Positions 43,976-52,207 are shown, counted from the first letter of the stretch. The stretch: 64,000 nucleotides of DNA from an uncultured Actinomycetota bacterium (GCA_963758615.1 CAVWVZ010000011.1:302369-366368); one strand, 5' to 3'. The notes: generated by a model not told the origin, from the sequence alone. Translations and numbers: made by a program.

Positions 43976-44329
43976 GGCTCTCTCCTCTTCTGTTGGGGGT
44001 GATGGAGAACTGAACATGACTCACGTTATGGACGCAGGAATCGTGCGTCATCGGGACCTGCACCTGTATCGCCGTAGGTACTGACACCACCCCGCCACTG
44101 GTGCTGGCATGGACGGCCACCCGTGCCAGTGCTGAGCGAATCCGCTCCGAATGGCGCGGCCGGTCTTTCGGCCCAATGGCGATCTGCGGCGCGGATTCTT
44201 GCGCGCACGCAGCATTCCCGCGCCGCACCGCAAGCAATCGCACAGGGATCGCTCGTAGCCTTGAGGGGTGCGGCGAATCGCGCCGCGACCACACCCATGC
44301 AGATTTCCTCACGAGGAACGGAGGTTCAT

Positions 44330-45781
44330 ATGTCGAACACCACCATCGACGCCGTCGTCGGCGAACCCGAGGTCCTCGAGGACGAGGTCGCCGCCGCCCA
44401 GATCGCGCTTGCCGCCGGCGTCGAGACCGCCCCCGCGTGGCTCGCGCTCAAGCAGGCGGCCACCGCGCTGCAGTCGCTGCAGGTCAAGGACGGCTCGGTT
44501 CCCGAAGAGGGCGACCGGTCCGAGGCATCCGCGCTCGTCGACACCATCGTCGAGTCGGTCGTCGCACTCGCCCCGCGGTTCCCGCACGAGGCGGCGTACC
44601 TCGAGGCGCTGCAGGCCGACTTCCGCAAGTGGCAGGGCGAGGGGCTCGGCGTGCCCGACTTCCTCGACTCGCTCATGGCGTTCCAGCCGCAGCGGCACCG
44701 CGTCGACGGCATCCGCCACCTGGTCGTGTTCCCGATGTACACGCAGAACGGGTCGACCGATCGGCACGTCGAGGCGCTCGTCGTCGAGACGATCTGGCCC
44801 GAGTTCATCGCCGCGCTCGAGGCGGGCGACTACGGCAACAAGCTCTTCGTGAGCCTGCGCCTGGTCGACTTCACGCCCGGGTACGACACGAACTCGGCGG
44901 TGCTGTTCCCCGAGACGGTCGCGATGCGCGAGATCCCCACGTTCACGTGGGGTGCGATCTTCCAGGACCGCGAGGCGGCCCGGTACCGCCGGGTGGTGCG
45001 CGCGGCATCCGAGATCACGAAGCTCGAACTGCCCGACGACGCGGCGTCGCTGCTCGACGACCAGGAGCTCGCCGAGCGCACGTTCGTGATGTGGGACATC
45101 ATCCACGACCGCACGCACATGCGCGGCGACCTGCCGTTCGACCCGTTCATGATCAAGCAGCGCATGCCGTTCTTCCTCTACTCGCTCGAGGAGCTGCGGT
45201 GCGACCTCACCGCGTTCCGCGAGTCGGTGAAGATCGAGCGCGGCCTGCGTCAGCGCGTCGACGCCGGTGAATCGCTCACCGACATCGAGCAGCAGCTGCT
45301 CGAGCACGGCAAGCTCGTGCAGTACGCGGTGATCTTCGACCGCATCTTCCGGTTCGCCATCACGGGGTCGCGCGTGCGCAACTACGACGGGCTCGGCGGC
45401 CAGCTGCTGTTCGCGTGGCTGCACCAGAAGCACGTGCTCGAGTGGACCGACGTCTCGCTCAGCTTCGACTGGGCAGCAGTGCCCGACGCGGTCGTCGAAC
45501 TCGGCGACGCGATCGACGAGCTGTACTGGAAGTCGATCGACCGGCCGAAGACGGCGCACTGGCTCGCCGCGTACGAACTCGTGCGCAGCGTGCTCACGCC
45601 GAACCCGGCGTCGATGTGGGCCGAGGGCCTGCCGCGCGAGGTGCTCGCCGGCCCGCCGAAGGGCTACACCGACCTGGTGATGGACGACGAGTTCCCCCTG
45701 TCGATGTTCTTCGAGGCACTCGACAAGAAGATGAAGCCCGTCATCGAGTCGACGGTCGGCATCACTGCCGCCGACGCCTAG
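44330..45781 (+). CDS. DUF6421 family protein (possible M49-like metallo-fold)
   Basis: GGAGG RBS; HLVVFPMYTQNGS, GYDTNSAVLFPE, WDIIHDRTHMRGDLPFDPF, YSLEELRCDL, RNYDGLGGQLLF. Confidence 0.85.
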   Translation: MSNTTIDAVVGEPEVLEDEVAAAQIALAAGVETAPAWLALKQAATALQSLQVKDGSVPEEGDRSEASALVDTIVESVVALAPRFPHEAAYLEALQADFRKWQGEGLGVPDFLDSLMAFQPQRHRVDGIRHLVVFPMYTQNGSTDRHVEALVVETIWPEFIAALEAGDYGNKLFVSLRLVDFTPGYDTNSAVLFPETVAMREIPTFTWGAIFQDREAARYRRVVRAASEITKLELPDDAASLLDDQELAERTFVMWDIIHDRTHMRGDLPFDPFMIKQRMPFFLYSLEELRCDLTAFRESVKIERGLRQRVDAGESLTDIEQQLLEHGKLVQYAVIFDRIFRFAITGSRVRNYDGLGGQLLFAWLHQKHVLEWTDVSLSFDWAAVPDAVVELGDAIDELYWKSIDRPKTAHWLAAYELVRSVLTPNPASMWAEGLPREVLAGPPKGYTDLVMDDEFPLSMFFEALDKKMKPVIESTVGITAADA

Positions 45782-45940: not shown

Positions 45941-46594
45941 ATGGCTGAACTGGCAGGCAAGACCGTGCTCATCGCGGGAGCGACGAGCGCGTCCGGCCGG
46001 GCGGTCGCCCGCGCCCTGCTCTCAGCGGGCGCACGGGTGGTCGCCGTCGGCAGCGACGAGGGGCGCATTCGCGAGCTCGAGGCCGAGCTCCCCGGCATCA
46101 TCGGAGAGCAGGCCGACCTCACCGATGGCGACGACGTGCTCGAACTCGCGATGCGCGTGCACGCGCATGTCGGCGATGTCGACGGCGTCGTCCATCTCGT
46201 CGGCGGGTGGCGCGGCGGCGGCGGCATCGCGGGGCAGACCGAAGAGGACTACCGGGTCCTCGAACGCTCGTTCACGGCGCTGCGCTACGTGAGCCGCGCG
46301 TTCTGGGACGACGTGGTCGCCTCACCCGCCGGCCGCATCGCGATCGTCTCGTCGACCACGGTCGAGCGACCCACCGCGGGCGGCGCGAACTACACCGCCG
46401 TGAAGGCGGCGAGCGAGTCGTGGATGCGCTCGCTCGCCCAGGGAATCGGCAAGTCCGACTCGCCCGCTGCCGCCGTCACCTTCCGGGTGAACTCGCTCGC
46501 GGGTCTCGAAGACCGGTTCGCGACATCCGTCGTCGATCTCTGGCGAACGGATGACCCCGACCTGAACGGTTCCGTCATCGAACTGCGACCCTGA
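45941..46594 (+). CDS. Short-chain dehydrogenase/reductase
   Basis: VLIAGATSASG, HLVGGW, NYTAVKAA (YxxxK). Confidence 0.88.
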   Translation: MAELAGKTVLIAGATSASGRAVARALLSAGARVVAVGSDEGRIRELEAELPGIIGEQADLTDGDDVLELAMRVHAHVGDVDGVVHLVGGWRGGGGIAGQTEEDYRVLERSFTALRYVSRAFWDDVVASPAGRIAIVSSTTVERPTAGGANYTAVKAASESWMRSLAQGIGKSDSPAAAVTFRVNSLAGLEDRFATSVVDLWRTDDPDLNGSVIELRP

Positions 46595-46628: not shown

Positions 46629-47330
46629 TCAGTTCGTGCCGCCGGTGAGGTGCACCGCGTAGCCCCAGCAGCCCGCCTGCTCCCAGTCGTAGTCTGCGCC
46701 GAGACCGGAATCACCGTAGAGCGCGAGATCCCAGGCCGCGTACTCGTCGGAGGTCAGTTCCGCAGGCATCGGCGGGAACCGGTTGGACTGCGCGGACTTC
46801 GGGTTCCACCACTCCCAGTAGAGGTACTCCTGACCGGCGGCGGTCATGCAGTCGCGCACGATCTGCTGGAACGCGAGCCACTCCCTGCGCTTCTCGGGCG
46901 GCGGCGGGGGCGTGGTGCCGTCGGGGTTCGGCTCGACGGAGTCGGGCCCGCCGGGTGCCGGGTGGCCGGCGGCCGGGTCGTCGGGTATGGGCGTGGGGGT
47001 GGGCACGTCGCCTGTGGGCGGCGCTGCGGACGGAGGGGTGACCGGCTCGGTCGGTTGCGTCGAGGGAGTGGGGGCCGGCTCGGTCGGCTGCGTGGCGGCC
47101 TCGGGCGGGGCCGGTTCGGCCGCGTCGACCTCGGGCGCGCCATCGGTCGACGACTCCGGCGCCTCGCCCTCGCTCACCTCGAACGCGCCCGAGGAGTTCG
47201 GCACCTCGTGCGGCAACCGGGCGTCGTAGAAGACCGGGGCTCCGGTCATCGCGGCGGCAGCCCCGGCGAAGACCGCCGCGGCGACGGCGAGCGCGACCCC
47301 ACCGGCCAGCACCAGCAACTTCTTGCGCAC
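46629..47330 (-). CDS. Hypothetical membrane-anchored/secreted protein: Pro/Thr linker plus one Cys/Trp domain
   Basis: MRKK plus hydrophobic segment, PT-rich linker, C-terminal VRDCMTAAG..WEWW..WDLALYG..AGC. Confidence 0.8.
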   Translation of the reverse strand: MRKKLLVLAGGVALAVAAAVFAGAAAAMTGAPVFYDARLPHEVPNSSGAFEVSEGEAPESSTDGAPEVDAAEPAPPEAATQPTEPAPTPSTQPTEPVTPPSAAPPTGDVPTPTPIPDDPAAGHPAPGGPDSVEPNPDGTTPPPPPEKRREWLAFQQIVRDCMTAAGQEYLYWEWWNPKSAQSNRFPPMPAELTSDEYAAWDLALYGDSGLGADYDWEQAGCWGYAVHLTGGTN

Positions 47331-47380
47331 GTCACACCCCCCGGATCGGCGTCATCGCACACCCCACGTATCCGGACATG

Positions 47381-48697
47381 CTAACCGCGATCGCCGTCGC
47401 CGGAAAGCGGAAGGTCGGCCGCCGTCTCGTCTGCCGGCGTGAGGTCGGTCGCGACATCGGCCGGGGGTTGCCGGCGCCGGCTCAGCCAAAGGAACGGGGC
47501 CGCGAGAATCTGGATGCCGCCGCTCAGGATCAGCGAGCCGGGGTACCCCCAGATATCGGCCGACCGGCCGAGCACCGGCTGGATCACAACACCTCCCGTG
47601 CTGCCGAGCAACGAGTCGAACGACAGCACCGTGGCGCGCTGCGCCGAGGGGATCATGTCGTTGAGGTAGGCCCGCTGCACGGGTCCGGCGGCCGCGTCGA
47701 CGAGGCCCCAGACGATCAGCAGTGCGAACGCCACCCAGAAGTTGCGGGTGATGCCGAGGGCGACGAGCACGAGGCTGCTCATGACGAGGCTGAGGATGAT
47801 CGTGGTCGTGCGCTTGCGGAACCGGGCGCGGACCCAGGGCGCGATCAGTCCGCCGAGGATCTGGGAACCGGACAGGATCGCCGCTGCGAGGCCGGCGATC
47901 GTGTATGCGTTCGGGTCTCCCCACAGTTCGACGAGGTACGGCTGGAGCGCGTAGAACACGTAGAAGCCGACCCCGGTCGTGAAGAACGACGCGAACATCA
48001 CGAAGCGCACGGCAGGCCGCCTGATCCCGTACTTCACCGACTCCTGCATCACCCGCTTCGTGGCCTGCAGCGGATGCGCCCGACCGGTAGGCGTGAAGCC
48101 CATGTCGTGCATCACCAGCGCGGCGACGATGAACATGAGCACGAGGATGACCGCACGCAGCACGAACGGCACCCCCAGATCGGTGAGCTGCGCGATCGCG
48201 CCGCCGGCGAGCGAGCCGATGAACATCGCCGCGCCCGACACCGCCATGCCGCGGCCGAACACCCGCTCGAGGCTGCCCGAGTACCCCGTCACGGTGAGCG
48301 CGTCGACGAGCCACGCCTCGACCGCACCCGAGAAGAACGTGAACCCGAGGCCGAGCAGCACCGACACGACCGCCCACGCCCAGAACGGCGAGTGCATCAC
48401 CCAGAGCATGTAGTAGAGCGCCGTCGTCACCGCGAGGGTGACGGTGCCGAGCAGGTACGACATGCGCCGCCCGAGCGTGTCGGCCACGACACCCGTGGGC
48501 ACCTCGAAGATGACCATGCCGAGCGAGAAGAACGCGTTCGCCGCGAACGCCTCGAGGTTCGTGAGGCCCGCGTCGAGCAGGAACAGCGTGTTCACGCCCC
48601 AGATCAGCGACGCGGCGAGCGTGTTGCCGGTGAGCAGCGTGAAGTACACGGCCTGCACCCGCCGTGCCGCGTGGTTCACCGTGGCCGGGTCGCTCAT
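47381..48697 (-). CDS. MFS transporter
   Basis: FEVPTGVVADTLGRR, FFSGAVEAWLVD, IPSAQRATVLS; 12 TM segments. Confidence 0.9.
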   Translation of the reverse strand: MSDPATVNHAARRVQAVYFTLLTGNTLAASLIWGVNTLFLLDAGLTNLEAFAANAFFSLGMVIFEVPTGVVADTLGRRMSYLLGTVTLAVTTALYYMLWVMHSPFWAWAVVSVLLGLGFTFFSGAVEAWLVDALTVTGYSGSLERVFGRGMAVSGAAMFIGSLAGGAIAQLTDLGVPFVLRAVILVLMFIVAALVMHDMGFTPTGRAHPLQATKRVMQESVKYGIRRPAVRFVMFASFFTTGVGFYVFYALQPYLVELWGDPNAYTIAGLAAAILSGSQILGGLIAPWVRARFRKRTTTIILSLVMSSLVLVALGITRNFWVAFALLIVWGLVDAAAGPVQRAYLNDMIPSAQRATVLSFDSLLGSTGGVVIQPVLGRSADIWGYPGSLILSGGIQILAAPFLWLSRRRQPPADVATDLTPADETAADLPLSGDGDRG

Positions 48698-48772
48698 AGG
48701 CGAGTTCGTCGATCGGACACGAGCCCCATCTTCCTCCTGCGCACCGACAGCGGGAAGGGCTAGCCTCAACCC

Positions 48773-49162
48773 ATGGTGCGCTTCCTGATCCGCACGGCGA
48801 TCTTCCTGGTCACCGCCGCCCTCGGCCTGCTCGTCGCCTTCTGGCTGCTGCCCGAGTTCCACATCGAGTGGGGCGGGTTCCTCGTCGCGACGCTCGTCTT
48901 CGCGATCGCCCAGAGCCTGCTCGCACCGTTCACCTTCAGGCTCGCCCACCGCCACGCGCCGGCGGTGCTGGGCGGCATCGGCCTCGTCTCGACGTTCATC
49001 GCGCTCCTCATCGCGAGCCTGTTCCCGAGCGGGATCCAGATCGACGGCTTCACCACGTGGGTGCTCGCGACGCTCATCGTCTGGGCGGTCACGGCGCTCG
49101 GCACGTGGCTGCTGCCGCTCATCTTCCTGAAGCGACGCGTCGACGCGCGCAACGAGCCGTAG
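48773..49162 (+). CDS. 4-TM membrane protein of the 'phage holin superfamily IV'/DUF360 type
   Basis: Four hydrophobic segments, GGIGLVSTF, IQIDGFTTWVLATLIVW; leaderless after TAGCCT; no phage context. Confidence 0.8.
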   Translation: MVRFLIRTAIFLVTAALGLLVAFWLLPEFHIEWGGFLVATLVFAIAQSLLAPFTFRLAHRHAPAVLGGIGLVSTFIALLIASLFPSGIQIDGFTTWVLATLIVWAVTALGTWLLPLIFLKRRVDARNEP

Positions 49163-49196
49163 TAATCATCCGCCGCAGCTGCGCGGCGTCGCCCGC

Positions 49197-50060
49197 TCAG
49201 TGCATGTTGTCGTTGCCGGTGACGTGCGTCGCGTAGCCCGAGCAGCCGGCATCCTCCCAGCGGTAGGCGGCAGCCGAACCGGCGTCGCCGTACATCGCCG
49301 CAGTCCATGCGGCCTGTTCATCGGCGCTCAGGTCCACGGGCATCCGTCCGTCGACCCGCGGGTCGGACGGCTGGTGCTCGGGGTTCCACCACTCGTAGTA
49401 GAGCACCTCGAAGCCGGCGTCGGCCATGCACTGACGAACCGCGTCGTCGAATACGAGCGACTCCTGGCGCGGCGTCGGCGTCGACGGGTCGTCGGGTGGC
49501 ACCGGGGCGGTGAGCGGCGTGCCCGCCGCGCGTGCGGCCTCTGCCGCGGCGACGCCAGCATCGGCGCATCCTCCGCCCGGGTTGTAGATGTCGGGTCCGT
49601 ACAGGGCCTGCGTCCAGAGCACCGAGGTCTCGAAGTCGAGCCCAGGGGGTTGCCCGCCTTCGCCGATCCACCAGAGGTTCGGCAGGTACTCGAACCCGGC
49701 GTCGTTCATGCACTGGCGCACGACCGCGTCCTGCCCGAGGTACTCGGCGCGTTCCTCGAGGCTCACGTACTCGGGGTCGCCGGGTTCGAGGTACGGGTTG
49801 TAATCGGCGGCCATCACGCCGGTACCGGGAACGCGCTCGGGACTCGCAGGGGTCACGTCGGTGGGCGCCACGGCGGCGGGCGCTGGGGCTGGCTCGGTCG
49901 ACGTCGGCTCGACGTCGACCGCGGTGGGCTCAGCCGCCGCGGTCGGCACCGGCTCCGGTTGATTGGCCGCGTACGCGGCCACGCCGAGTGCGACGACGGA
50001 TGCTCCGCCGACGACGGCGCCCGAGATCGCGACGATCGCGGCGATGCGTTGGAGGTTCAC
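49197..50060 (-). CDS. Hypothetical membrane-anchored/secreted protein: Pro/Thr linker plus two Cys/Trp domains
   Basis: GTG overlaps the upstream stop; N-terminal hydrophobic segment; VRQCMNDAG..WW..WTQALYG..GGC and VRQCMADAG..EWW..WTAAMYG..AGC. Confidence 0.8.
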   Translation of the reverse strand: MNLQRIAAIVAISGAVVGGASVVALGVAAYAANQPEPVPTAAAEPTAVDVEPTSTEPAPAPAAVAPTDVTPASPERVPGTGVMAADYNPYLEPGDPEYVSLEERAEYLGQDAVVRQCMNDAGFEYLPNLWWIGEGGQPPGLDFETSVLWTQALYGPDIYNPGGGCADAGVAAAEAARAAGTPLTAPVPPDDPSTPTPRQESLVFDDAVRQCMADAGFEVLYYEWWNPEHQPSDPRVDGRMPVDLSADEQAAWTAAMYGDAGSAAAYRWEDAGCSGYATHVTGNDNMH

Positions 50061-50818
50061 GCGGCGGCTCCCTCGGTGGTCATTCGCGCGGCGACATCCG
50101 TTCGCCGACGCTTCGATGCCCAGAGCGATCCCGCCGATGGCAGCCACCAGGCGGCCATCGCGACGAAGAAGAGGACGCCCGCGGCGGCGAGGCCCCGATT
50201 CAGCAGGATCGCCTGGGAGAGGGACGACAGGTAGAACTCGGTCAGCGTGGCGCTCGACGCGATGAGCGTGTACATGCCGAAGCGGATCAGCACGTAGCTC
50301 GCGGCCGCGAGCCAGAGCGCGCCGAGCCAGCGCAGCCGGGGGATCGCCGTGAGCACGGCACCGAGGAGCGCCATCGCGAGGCCGACCACCCCGGCCGCCA
50401 CGAGATCCCAGGCGCCGGCCCAGTCGCCGGCCGTCATGCCGGCTGCGGTACGTGCGACGACGAGCACTCCCCACGCGAGCAGCAGCGCAGTCGCGAGGTG
50501 CGCGAGCGCCGGCAGCGCCAGGGGGAACGTGCCCCAAGGGGCCGCGAGCGCGGCTCGGCGAAGTCGGGCGTACCGCCAGGCGAGATCGGCCGGGATGCCC
50601 CTGATCGCACGGCCCACGATCGCACGGCTGGTGGCGGAGTCGCCGCCGGCATCGGCGCGTTGCTCGTAGAGATCGGAGGCGAGCTCGGCGACGCGCGCGG
50701 TGGCGACCGGCTCGGGGAGGTCGCGGGTGTACCAGCGGCACCAGCCCAGCACGGCAGCGTCGACCCGGTCGCCCGCCGTGCGCGGCACGATCGTCTGTTC
50801 GATCAGCTCGCCGCTCAT
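50057..50818 (-). CDS. PadR-associated membrane protein
   Basis: Cytoplasmic N-terminus WCRWYTRDLP..RVAELASDLYEQ..GIPADLAWR, then about four TM segments; coupled to padR. Confidence 0.8.
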   Translation of the reverse strand: MSGELIEQTIVPRTAGDRVDAAVLGWCRWYTRDLPEPVATARVAELASDLYEQRADAGGDSATSRAIVGRAIRGIPADLAWRYARLRRAALAAPWGTFPLALPALAHLATALLLAWGVLVVARTAAGMTAGDWAGAWDLVAAGVVGLAMALLGAVLTAIPRLRWLGALWLAAASYVLIRFGMYTLIASSATLTEFYLSSLSQAILLNRGLAAAGVLFFVAMAAWWLPSAGSLWASKRRRTDVAARMTTEGAAA

Positions 50819-51171
50819 GCGAACGCCGCCTTCGGCTGCGGAGCGACGGCCTCGGCGCGTGCGGCGAGCTCGGCCCGGTGCGCAAGCTCGCCGGCACCGG
50901 TCACCCGGTACAACCGGCGCCGCGGACGACCCTCGGCCTCGGCGATCGCCGCGTCCTCCCACGTCGGTTCGAGCAGGCCGGAATCGGTGAGGCGCGCGAG
51001 CGCCTTGTAGAGCGTGCCGTGCGCCGTGAGCGCGCCGGCATCGTTGTGCTCGGCGATGCGCTTCGCGAGTGCGAACCCGTAGAAGTCGCCGTCTTCCCCC
51101 TGCAGTTCCATGCCTGCACCGAGGATGTGCATCTCGAGGTCGAGCAGTCGACCTTCACGTCTGCGTGCCAT
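50815..51171 (-). CDS. PadR family transcriptional regulator
   Basis: YGFALAKRI, GTLYKALARL..GLL..W, GRPRRRLYRVT..G; leaderless ATG 7 nt after TATTCT. Confidence 0.9.
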   Translation of the reverse strand: MARRREGRLLDLEMHILGAGMELQGEDGDFYGFALAKRIAEHNDAGALTAHGTLYKALARLTDSGLLEPTWEDAAIAEAEGRPRRRLYRVTGAGELAHRAELAARAEAVAPQPKAAFA

Positions 51172-51181
51172 GGTGGAAAGA

Positions 51182-51201
51182 ATAGGAAGATATCTTCCTA
51201 T
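51182..51201. promoter_or_regulatory. Perfect 20-bp palindrome, probable PadR operator
   Basis: ATAGGAAGATATCTTCCTAT, AT-rich in a GC-rich background, overlapping the padR -10. Confidence 0.8.
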
Positions 51202-51361: not shown

Positions 51362-52207
51362 ATGCGCAAGCGCACCGTCGCGCTCATCGTCGTCGCCGCC
51401 GTCCTCCTCGCCCTCGTCGGCGGGGCGTACTGGGCCGGCCGCCACCTCTTCCACGAGCCCACCGCCGAGGGGGTCGACTCCGTCGTCGGCGAGCTCGGCG
51501 GCACCCGCGTCCTCGGCGTCTTCGCCCATCCCGACGACGAGCAGACCGTGAACGGACTGTTCTTCCGCGCCAAGCAGCGCGACGGCGCGTACACCGCGAT
51601 GATCACGGCGACGCAGGGCGAGGCCGGCCACCAGACGCCCGTGGTCGCCAGGCAGGAGGACCTCGGGACCATCCGCAAGGCCGAGGCGCTGAAGAACAGC
51701 TTCAACCTCGGTGTCGACCGTCACGTCGTGTGGGACTACCCCGACGGCGGCGTGCCCGATGCCGACGAGGACGAGCTCGTGGCGCGCGTCGTCGCCGAGA
51801 TGAAGCGCGTGCGCCCCGATGTCGTCGTGGCCTTCTGGCCAGAGAGCGGCGCGACCGGGCACGCCGACCACATGGAGATGGGCCGGATCACCGAGCTCGC
51901 GATCGCCGAGCTCGAGGCATCCGACGGCTCATACACCGGGCCCGACCAGCTCGTCTACACGATCAGCCCGTCGGGCGCGCTCGCGGCGTTCGGCGGCGAG
52001 ACCGGGGCGTTCGTCGTCGCGAACCAGCCGAAGCCCGAGTACGCGATGAGCGCCGAGGTGGCGAAGAAGCACGAGGGCTGGACCATCCACGCGTCGCAGG
52101 CGAACTTCCTGCCCGAGGCGTACATCCTGCCCACGTGGCTCGTCTACTCGCTGTGGGACCAGGAGTTCTACCACGTGCGCGATCTCGAGGCCGAGCCCCT
52201 CACGTAG
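51362..52207 (+). CDS. PIG-L/LmbE family de-N-acetylase with an N-terminal membrane anchor
   Basis: AHPDDE, TATQGEAG, RKAEA, YPDG, GHADH; N-terminus MRKR plus hydrophobic segment. Confidence 0.87.
   Translation: MRKRTVALIVVAAVLLALVGGAYWAGRHLFHEPTAEGVDSVVGELGGTRVLGVFAHPDDEQTVNGLFFRAKQRDGAYTAMITATQGEAGHQTPVVARQEDLGTIRKAEALKNSFNLGVDRHVVWDYPDGGVPDADEDELVARVVAEMKRVRPDVVVAFWPESGATGHADHMEMGRITELAIAELEASDGSYTGPDQLVYTISPSGALAAFGGETGAFVVANQPKPEYAMSAEVAKKHEGWTIHASQANFLPEAYILPTWLVYSLWDQEFYHVRDLEAEPLT

What the first reader, a model, noticed from the sequence alone, without database searches (positions are those of the whole stretch)
46629..50060. Uncharacterised ~70-85-aa Cys/Trp domain in three copies across two nearby surface proteins
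Seen: consensus VRxCMxxAGxExxxxxWW...PxxL...WxxA(L/M)YG...GC, once in 46629-47330 and twice in 49197-50060. Both proteins have an N-terminal hydrophobic anchor and a Pro/Thr/Glu stalk. Two invariant Cys suggest a disulfide, and the conserved Trp/Tyr suggest a binding surface. I recognise no named family. Inference: a stalk-displayed binding module, for example for a glycan, a peptide antibiotic or a phage.
Basis: partly seen in the sequence, partly recalled or inferred. Interest (0 to 1): 0.65.

Follow-up and report, generated by a model that had tools for sequence, protein, structure and literature searches.

The report
Unnamed two-cysteine surface domain tied to regulators
Two neighbouring Agromyces genes carry three copies of a real, unnamed 85-residue outward-facing protein domain that, across its bacterial family, is almost always encoded next to membrane signalling genes, so it is probably the ligand-binding end of a small envelope-sensing device, though its ligand is unknown.

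Summary
Protein A (46629-47330, minus strand) has one copy and protein B (49197-50060, minus strand) has two copies of an ~85-residue domain. The two Cys are kept in 196 of 196 full-length domain alignments. The copies are clearly homologous (BLASTP 3e-27; hhalign 99.1 %). AlphaFold2 gives the same three-helix pattern for all of them (pLDDT 91 and 81).

Nothing matches in Pfam, NCBIfam, PADLOC, PHROGs, PDB sequences, Foldseek against PDB or BFVD, phages or plasmids. The family is small: 297 representatives among 1.84 billion proteins. It is nearly confined to Microbacteriaceae.

New here is the context. B-type genes always follow a PadR regulator and a 4-TM membrane protein, with overlapping start and stop codons. 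That operon sits under a conserved palindrome that is unique in the genome. A-type genes always follow an efflux-type MFS transporter. In another genus the same domain is the outer end of single-pass proteins encoded directly after ECF sigma factors. Other relatives are lipoproteins.

Best reading (about 0.5): a membrane-tethered, disulfide-stapled extracytoplasmic binding module that feeds transmembrane signalling. The ligand is unknown, and a purely protective "sequestering" role is not excluded.

This is a new family inside a known kind of system. Interest is moderate.

The parts
46629..47330 (-). Protein A (233 aa): N-terminal anchor or signal peptide, Pro/Thr/Glu stalk, one C-terminal domain copy
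   Evidence: ORF. Orthologues at 62-90 % domain identity in Agromyces. Always downstream of the MFS gene.
47250..47330 (-). A residues 1-27: hydrophobic anchor, possibly a cleavable signal peptide (AAA|MTGAPVFYDAR). The motif TGAPVFYDAR(Y/L)P after it is conserved in A-type orthologues.
   Evidence: Hydropathy peak at residues 5-23. Motif visible in the sequences. Cleavage is inferred, not tested.
46899..47249 (-). A residues 28-144: Pro/Ala/Thr/Glu-rich stalk
   Evidence: Composition. Length and sequence vary between orthologues.
46632..46898 (-). Domain copy A (residues 145-233)
   Evidence: AF2 pLDDT 91, pTM 0.82, helices 2-20, 50-61 and 76-84. Alignment A3.
47381..48700 (-). MFS transporter (~439 aa), efflux (drug:H+ antiporter)-like. 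It ends 50 bp before A, and the scan found no terminator-like site in the gap.
   Evidence: Pfam MFS_1. Distant matches to Tet(40), TetA(P) and NorA. Gap sequence. Terminator scan. MFS followed by A in 31 loci.
49197..50060 (-). Protein B (287 aa): TM anchor, linker, domain B1, linker, domain B2
   Evidence: GTG start overlaps the upstream stop as GTGA, with GAGGGAG 11 nt upstream. Orthologues.
49971..50060 (-). B residues 1-30: single TM anchor (IAAIVAISGAVVGGASVVA)
   Evidence: Hydropathy.
49521..49763 (-). Domain copy B1 (residues 100-180), the divergent subtype
   Evidence: hhalign 99.1 % to the A/B2 profile. Separate clade, support 100/99. AF2 helices 17-36, 59-70 and 81-94 of the two-domain model.
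49200..49478 (-). Domain copy B2 (residues 195-287), ending in the conserved tail HVTGNDNMH
   Evidence: 53 % identical to A. AF2 helices 113-130, 162-173 and 184-197. Tail conserved in alignment A4.
50057..50818 (-). 253-aa membrane protein: about 95 cytoplasmic residues (W.RWYTRDLP..VA..R.AEL.SDL.E...RGIPADLAWR) followed by about 4 TM segments with only short outside loops
   Evidence: ATGA overlap with padR. Alignment A5 with invariant G74 and P76. Hydropathy. No Pfam or NCBIfam match.
50815..51171 (-). PadR-family regulator (118 aa)
   Evidence: Pfam PF03551, E 5.4e-12. Start ATG at 51171.
51182..51201 (.). Perfect 20-bp palindrome ATAGGAAGAT|ATCTTCCTAT, 10 nt upstream of the padR ATG; likely the PadR operator
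   Evidence: Only copy in the genome at up to 3 mismatches. The core GGAAGATATCTTCC at up to 2 mismatches gives only two further sites, near the control rate. Related sequences sharing the half-site ATCTTCCTAT, often with most of the palindrome, lie at the position of the padR start in the B-type loci.

Best explanation
The three copies belong to one undescribed family of ~85-residue extracytoplasmic domains. The predicted fold has three helices. A Cys at the end of helix 1 (the CM motif) and a Cys at the start of helix 3 (the AGC motif) probably form a disulfide that staples the fold. A loop of variable length lies between helices 1 and 2. The domain is held outside the membrane by an N-terminal TM anchor, a lipid anchor or a signal peptide, plus a Pro-rich linker.

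I read it as a ligand-binding input or partner module for polytopic or single-pass membrane signalling proteins.

In the window, B is made in fixed ratio with a 4-TM protein (overlapping stop and start codons). That protein has almost no outside loops. Its cytoplasmic N-terminus looks like the HAAS-type partner of PadR regulators. B would supply the missing outside domain. Binding of an envelope-derived or external ligand would be passed through the membrane protein and release PadR from the palindromic operator, which would raise expression of the operon.

B is the only non-regulatory product of that operon. It may therefore also titrate the ligand it senses, that is, sense and sequester.

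A is a copy found here only in Agromyces and MAGs that is co-transcribed with an efflux-type MFS transporter. It probably works with that transporter on the outer face.

Shown: homology, invariant Cys, predicted fold, outward topology signals, synteny, the operator. Inferred: the disulfide, the contact with the membrane partners, signalling, ligand binding.
For: The domain is real and has one fold.

The Cys pair is kept in 196/196 complete domain alignments.

Outward location: single N-terminal hydrophobic segments. Relatives carry lipoprotein boxes (P0041, P0044, P0066; L091, L092, L118, L120, L122). Among 148 representatives, 107 have an early TM segment and 14 have a lipobox.

Synteny: PadR, then membrane protein, then domain protein in 30 of 59 loci from genome contigs. 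These include single-domain forms in Glaciihabitans, Pseudolysinimonas and MAGs. The same order occurs in 18 of 40 further Microbacteriaceae loci.

Translational coupling: ATGA and GTGA overlaps.

The operator is unique in the genome, and related sequences lie at the padR start in the B-type loci.

The membrane protein has no sizeable outside loop, and it has an invariant G-x-P in a three-helix N-terminus. This matches the description of HAAS partners of PadR in 10.1101/2020.09.24.301986.

Independent link to signalling: in 5 loci of another genus, an ECF sigma factor (Sigma70_r2 plus r4_2; L107 read by eye) sits directly upstream of a single-pass protein with a short cytoplasmic N-terminus, a TM segment, a linker and this domain.

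MFS followed by A in 31 loci, with no terminator-like site in the 50-bp gap.
Against: There is no direct evidence for any ligand, for the disulfide (model coordinates could not be inspected), or for contact with the membrane protein or the MFS.

The membrane protein does not match the HAAS models by HMM. hhalign against a likely HAAS protein of the same genome was negative.

The operator seems to control only this operon. A pure sensor role for B would leave the system without an output.

The sigma-linked proteins have no recognisable anti-sigma domain.

A-type copies and lipoprotein forms have no regulator next to them. Several loci have neither partner (L024, L027, L036, L037, L040).
Confidence: 0.5

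Rival explanations
1. Effector only. B (and A) is the output of the system, not its sensor. It would be a stalk-displayed protein that binds and neutralises or shields against an envelope-acting compound, or modifies the wall zone. The 4-TM protein would do the sensing by itself. This is.
For: The palindrome is unique in the genome, so the operon's only non-regulatory product is B. A-type and lipoprotein forms occur without regulators. The long Pro-rich stalk of A would reach into the wall.
Against: The same domain forms the outer end of single-pass proteins encoded right after ECF sigma factors. That is a sensor-like position. The tight translational coupling with a membrane protein that lacks outside loops suggests a complex. 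No similarity to any known binding, immunity or enzyme family was found.
Confidence: 0.25
2. Accessory or assembly subunit. The domain has no external ligand. It stabilises, positions or gates the polytopic membrane protein encoded just upstream: the 4-TM PadR partner for B and the MFS exporter for A. The nearest analogy is a small tethered partner protein of a transporter.
For: In both cases the gene lies directly downstream of a polytopic membrane protein and is conserved there. The A-type keeps a conserved juxtamembrane motif, TGAPVFYDARYP.
Against: Lipoprotein forms and sigma-linked forms have no such upstream membrane protein. Two very different membrane partners would have to be served by one small domain.
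Confidence: 0.1
3. Redox or metal sensor, a special case of the sensor reading. Either the invariant Cys pair is a reversible thiol-disulfide switch, or the conserved tail H-x-(T/S)-G-x-D-x-(A/M)-(N/H)-COOH with nearby Glu/Asp binds a metal ion. The state would be reported to PadR or to the sigma factor.
For: The Cys pair is never substituted. His, Asp and the terminal His/Asn are conserved in PadR-linked, sigma-linked and lipoprotein forms. Membrane-tethered all-helical periplasmic metal sensors are known (CnrX; from my own knowledge).
Against: The tail is degenerate in the A-type (HLTGGTN, or E/Q in place of His). There are no metal-resistance or thiol-oxidoreductase genes next to the operons examined. 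An invariant Cys pair is also what a purely structural disulfide gives. The tail is modelled with low confidence in B.
Confidence: 0.12
4. Not a domain: a chance resemblance between low-complexity, GC-rich coding sequences.
For: The window has about 71 % G+C and many spurious long ORFs. A few giant repetitive proteins appear among the weak profile hits.
Against: E-values run from 1e-8 to 3e-27 between copies. hhalign gives 99.1 %. There are 109 representatives at E<=1e-10. Synteny is conserved across genera. AF2 models are confident.
Confidence: 0.01

Closest known systems
HAAS-PadR-like wHTH signalling dyads (Ravi et al., PSP paper, bioRxiv 10.1101/2020.09.24.301986 / PMC11237479)
   Same: A standalone PadR regulator is encoded immediately before a membrane protein. 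That protein's cytoplasmic N-terminus is a short helical region with a conserved G-x-P, followed by several TM segments. The pair co-migrates across genomes. The operon looks autoregulated.
   Different: The membrane protein is not recognised by the Pfam HAAS models PF22564 and PF08006. The third gene is not a Toastrack, PspC or LiaF-type protein. It is a tethered outside protein with this new domain. No such three-part version was found described.
ECF sigma factor / single-pass anti-sigma factor pairs with an extracytoplasmic sensor domain
   Same: In one Microbacteriaceae genus the domain sits at the outside end of a single-pass protein. That protein's gene overlaps the end of an ECF sigma gene.
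   Different: This arrangement is not in the window. The cytoplasmic part shows no known anti-sigma domain (no zf-HC2 or RskA match), so only the topology and position are alike.
Tethered accessory sensor proteins of membrane signalling systems: CnrX of CnrYXH, HbpS of SenS/SenR, YycH/YycI of WalK (from my own knowledge, not tested here)
   Same: Each is a separate, membrane-tethered or secreted extracytoplasmic protein, encoded with the signalling proteins, that supplies ligand sensing to a membrane partner lacking its own outside domain.
   Different: There is no sequence or fold similarity: the PDB profile search and Foldseek were negative. The downstream regulator here is a PadR protein, not a histidine kinase or an anti-sigma factor.
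LprG-Rv1410c (P55) lipoprotein plus MFS exporter operon of mycobacteria (PMC4709180, PMC4214796)
   Same: An efflux-type MFS gene and a tethered outside protein sit in one conserved operon in an actinobacterium. This is the closest analogy for the MFS-A pair.
   Different: LprG is a beta-rich lipid-binding lipoprotein (LppX/LprAFG family), and its gene precedes the MFS. A is all-helical, unrelated in sequence, and follows the MFS. No lipid link is shown.

Membership tests
Any curated protein family (Pfam-A 2025, NCBIfam 20.0, PADLOC 2.0, PHROGs v4) | Significant HMM match of the domain region | tested here: not met
   A and B: nothing at or above threshold. Ten diverse relatives: nothing. The best hits are noise: Peptidase_M15 at E 0.14 and phrog_33784 at E 0.032.
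Any solved or predicted viral structure | Sequence-profile or fold similarity | tested here: not met
   Profiles A3 and A4 against PDB sequences: best E 0.19-1. Foldseek against PDB: best E 2.5 and 3.0, TM at most 0.28. BFVD: best E 3.3. AlphaFold DB was not available.
HAAS-PadR dyad | Standalone PadR-like wHTH gene adjacent to the partner gene | tested here: met
   PF03551 at E 5.4e-12. ATGA overlap with the membrane-protein gene.
HAAS-PadR dyad | Partner carries a HAAS domain (three helices, kinked third helix with conserved GxP) | tested here: inconclusive
   Invariant G74-I-P76 and an LP...R..EL pattern in alignment A5 fit the published description. However, hmmscan finds no HAAS model, and hhalign to a likely HAAS protein of the same genome is negative. 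The PF08006 genome search also failed on its control genomes.
HAAS-PadR dyad | HAAS lies N-terminal to multi-TM or sensory domains, and the pair co-migrates | tested here: met
   About 4 hydrophobic segments after residue 95. PadR plus membrane protein are conserved together in 30/59 and 18/40 loci.
ECF sigma / anti-sigma pair | ECF sigma gene directly upstream of the single-pass protein | tested here: not met
   Not in the window: A follows an MFS gene and B follows the PadR partner. It is met only in relatives L095 and L103 (Pfam Sigma70_r2 plus r4_2), L105 and L106 (tblastn) and L107 (read by eye).
ECF sigma / anti-sigma pair | Recognisable anti-sigma domain in the cytoplasmic N-terminus | tested here: not met
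   The L095 and L103 domain proteins match 0 Pfam families.
LprG/LppX-type lipoprotein with MFS partner | LppX_LprAFG fold or family in the tethered protein | tested here: not met
   No Pfam match. The model is all-helical. Only the operon logic (MFS plus tethered protein) is shared.
Disulfide-stapled extracytoplasmic domain | Two Cys conserved together and close in space | tested here: inconclusive
   Both Cys are present in 196/196 complete alignments. They sit at the end of helix 1 and the start of helix 3. The Cys-Cys distance in the model could not be read with these tools.

The most novel reading that the evidence does not exclude
The domain is a new extracytoplasmic sensor fold that is interchangeable between two unrelated signalling routes. 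It is fused to anti-sigma-like proteins in one genus and supplied in trans to a PadR/HAAS-like membrane pair elsewhere. If so, the PadR / 4-TM / B operon is a self-contained three-component "sense and sequester" circuit. It would give a compact, testable model for the proposed but largely untested idea that PadR-HAAS pairs are an alternative to two-component systems.
Probability: 0.3. Interest if true: 0.6.

Novelty: new variant of a known kind. Interest (0 to 1): 0.42.

Why it matters
It defines a protein domain family that no database names and for which no structural relative was found. It also gives the family a concrete, testable context. PadR regulators paired with membrane proteins are widespread and have been proposed, largely from comparative genomics, to act as an alternative to two-component signalling. 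Here the pair comes with a dedicated outside protein in a three-gene, apparently self-regulated operon with a clean operator. The same outside domain is also wired to ECF sigma factors. That makes it a good handle for asking what such systems sense in the actinobacterial cell envelope. The practical reach is limited by the narrow distribution in soil and freshwater Microbacteriaceae and by the lack of any clue to the ligand.

Tried and rejected
1. Family searches with Pfam, NCBIfam, PADLOC and PHROGs on A, B and ten relatives found nothing.

2. Structure searches found nothing: PDB sequence profiles, Foldseek of both models against PDB, and Foldseek of the single-domain model against BFVD.

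3. tblastn of domain B2 against 50,697 phage and 72,556 plasmid records gave no match. A mobile or phage-related origin is therefore not supported.

4. Giant proteins among the weak profile hits (P0137, P0190, P0187): P0187, the one inspected, is an unrelated Cys/Gly-rich repeat protein. I treat these hits as spurious.

5. HAAS membership of the 4-TM protein stays unresolved. hmmscan of 15 orthologues and of the N-terminal 95 residues was negative. The PF08006 search of the genome found nothing, but its control genomes also failed. hhalign to the PadR-adjacent protein of locus L079, which itself only reaches E 0.006 on PF22564, was negative.

6. Further operator copies that would reveal a regulon: none at up to 3 mismatches of the 20-mer. 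Two sites at 2 mismatches of the 14-mer core are near the control rate. There is none near A or the MFS gene.

Full report
**1. What is in the sequence**

The window is about 71 % G+C and comes from an Agromyces genome, to judge from the closest relatives.

- Protein A (46629-47330, 233 aa) has one hydrophobic segment at residues 5-23. A 104-residue stalk with 30 Pro follows, then a C-terminal domain at residues 145-233.
- Protein B starts at GTG 50060, inside a longer spurious open frame, and has 287 aa. It has a hydrophobic segment at residues 6-24, a Pro/Ala/Thr-rich linker, domain B1 (residues 100-180), a short linker and domain B2 (residues 195-287).

The three copies are homologous well beyond chance:
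- A vs B2 is 53 % identical, E 3e-27. A vs B1 gives E 1e-8.
- A profile of 45 A/B2-type domains against a profile of 11 B1-type domains gives hhalign probability 99.1 %, E 1.6e-18, with both Cys in register.
- In 196 of 196 complete domain alignments across the family both Cys are present. No substitution of either was seen.

**2. Fold**

AlphaFold2 on the A domain with a 45-sequence alignment gives pLDDT 91 and pTM 0.82. The model has three helices (residues 2-20, 50-61, 76-84) and a long, mostly confident, aromatic-rich loop between helices 1 and 2.

The first Cys ends helix 1 and the second begins helix 3. A disulfide would therefore staple these two helices. This is an inference, because the coordinates could not be read.

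The two-domain part of B (pLDDT 81) shows the same helix pattern twice. The loop between helices 1 and 2 ranges from absent to about 40 residues among homologues.

Invariant or nearly invariant positions are C-M...G in helix 1, W..A(L/M).G in helix 2, and G..Y.W..AGC.G into helix 3. Most forms also end in H-x-(T/S)-G-x-D-x-(A/M)-(N/H) at the very C-terminus. This tail is degenerate in the A-type.

**3. Is it known?**

No, on every test available:
- Pfam, NCBIfam, PADLOC and PHROGs give nothing for A, B or ten diverse relatives.
- Profiles against PDB sequences give nothing.
- Foldseek of both models against PDB gives best E 2.5-3 and TM at most 0.28. BFVD gives nothing.
- There are no relatives in phage or plasmid collections.
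- Source annotations are all "hypothetical protein".
- No paper was found on this arrangement.

AlphaFold DB could not be searched. "No known fold" therefore means no match in the libraries at hand.

**4. Size and spread of the family**

An exhaustive profile search of 1.84 billion representative proteins finds only 297 at E<=0.001 and 109 at E<=1e-10. P0187, one of the few giant repeat proteins among the weak hits, is an unrelated Cys/Gly-rich repeat protein, so I treat these hits as spurious.

- In 400 sampled Microbacteriaceae genomes, 43 have a match, spread over 18 of 101 genera. Five of 6 Agromyces genomes have one.
- In a sample of 400 genomes of the order, only 2 weak hits fall outside the family.
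- Of 148 representatives, 107 have an early TM segment and 14 have a lipoprotein box. This supports an outside location.
- Some relatives are longer lipoproteins (320-410 aa). They carry an insert after helix 1 and a second Cys-containing C-terminal part.

**5. Gene context, the main new result**

(a) B-type genes. In 30 of 59 loci fetched from one-genome-per-species contigs, the order is PadR, then a ~250-aa membrane protein, then the domain protein. This includes single-domain versions in Glaciihabitans, Pseudolysinimonas and MAGs. The same order holds in 18 of 40 further loci taken from other Microbacteriaceae genomes.

In the window the three genes overlap: ATGA at 50815-50818 and GTGA at 50057-50060, the latter with a GAGGGAG ribosome-binding sequence upstream.

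A perfect 20-bp palindrome (51182-51201) lies 10 nt upstream of the padR ATG. It is the only copy in the genome at up to 3 mismatches. Relaxing to the 14-bp core adds only two sites, close to the control rate. Related sequences that share the half-site ATCTTCCTAT, often with most of the palindrome, lie at the position of the padR start in the B-type loci.

(b) The membrane protein. It has no family match. It has a conserved ~95-residue cytoplasmic N-terminus with an invariant G-I-P. About four hydrophobic segments follow, with only short outside loops. This fits the published description of HAAS partners of PadR: three helices, a conserved GxP, N-terminal to multi-TM domains, always next to a PadR gene. 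Membership could not be confirmed by HMM or hhalign.

(c) A-type genes. In 31 loci the domain gene directly follows an MFS gene. Two more loci (L013, L055) keep the same surroundings. The MFS is efflux-like, with distant matches to Tet(40), TetA(P) and NorA. In the window the gap is 50 bp, with a G-rich ribosome-binding sequence and no terminator-like site.

The tree puts B1 in its own clade (support 100/99). The A-type falls among B2 and single-domain forms with weak support. A-type copies were found only in Agromyces and MAG loci. This is compatible with A being an offshoot of the PadR-linked form, but it does not prove it.

(d) Sigma-linked forms. In five loci from four genomes of another genus, the domain is the outside end of a single-pass protein whose gene overlaps the end of an ECF sigma gene. 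Sigma70_r2 and r4_2 were confirmed for two of them. Two more were identified by tblastn and one by reading. The cytoplasmic parts have no recognisable anti-sigma domain. The likeness is therefore one of position and topology only.

(e) Loci with no partner. Several loci have neither a regulator nor an MFS nearby.

**6. Reading**

A small outside domain recurs next to two unrelated kinds of transmembrane signalling genes. It is translationally coupled to a membrane protein that has no outside domain of its own. The best explanation is a tethered ligand-binding input or partner module.

One point cuts the other way. The operator appears to control only its own operon, so B is the only non-regulatory product. 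A pure sensor role would leave no output. I therefore favour a combined "sense and sequester" role (about 0.5) and keep an effector-only role as the main rival (0.25).

The other rivals are an assembly or accessory role for the upstream membrane proteins (0.1) and a redox or metal-sensing special case suggested by the invariant Cys pair and the His/Asp tail (0.12). Nothing identifies the ligand.

The absence of any defence-system or phage relatives gives no support to the phage idea.

**7. Limits**

- AlphaFold DB and HHsearch libraries were not available.
- Genome samples are samples: "not found" applies to those searched.

**8. Verdict**

This is a new, lineage-restricted domain family within a known kind of system (regulator plus membrane partner plus outside module). 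Interest is moderate.

Noticed in passing
window 51182-51201, and related sequences at the padR start in loci L005-L063: A perfect 20-bp palindrome lies 10 nt before the padR ATG. It is unique in the genome. Related sequences sharing the half-site ATCTTCCTAT lie at the padR start across genera. padR may be leaderless, with the operator over its promoter.
   Followed up: yes
window ~51362-52207 (+): A PIG-L family deacetylase (MshB/BshB-like, PF02585) with an N-terminal hydrophobic anchor is transcribed divergently from padR, out of the same ~190-bp intergenic region. This divergent pairing recurs in many Agromyces loci but not in other genera. Shared control by PadR was not tested.
   Followed up: partly
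window 44123-45781 (+) and 45941-46594 (+): DUF6421 (E 1.5e-244) and a short-chain dehydrogenase form a pair that converges on the end of gene A. The pair keeps this place in nearly all A-type loci.
   Followed up: partly
window 48773-49162 (+): A 129-aa four-TM protein of the Phage_holin_4_2/DUF360 family (E 5.5e-9) lies between B and the MFS gene, divergent from the MFS. It is conserved there in most Agromyces loci.
   Followed up: partly
loci L095, L103, L105, L106, L107 (genomes G156, G281, G333, G381): ECF sigma genes are followed by single-pass proteins that end in this domain and carry a short conserved cytoplasmic N-terminus (for example ERRAALRALLVEQA or DPVFAAAAQAELERRV) with no known anti-sigma domain. 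This may be an undescribed anti-sigma type.
   Followed up: partly
loci L041, L042, L055 and proteins P0116, P0123, P0124: These A-type variants have a changed region after helix 2. Some have a short GxGC motif followed by an acidic, Pro-rich tail. Others have a different C-terminus altogether. L007 and L038 show frameshift-like stretches inside the gene, which could be assembly errors or decay.
   Followed up: no
loci L087, L096, L098, L114, L074 and proteins P0189, P0195, P0204: These are longer lipoproteins (320-415 aa). They carry the helix 2 to helix 3 core of this domain, a large insert after helix 1, and a second Cys-pair region (W..CM..AG.P ... DC). They occur in other Microbacteriaceae and in one other family of the order, and they are also unannotated.
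   Followed up: partly
own genome, loci L078 and L079: Other PadR genes of this genome are followed by a DUF1048 protein plus an ABC ATPase (L078), and by a membrane protein with a sub-threshold HAAS match, E 0.006 (L079). The genome therefore holds several PadR-partner pairs of different kinds.
   Followed up: partly
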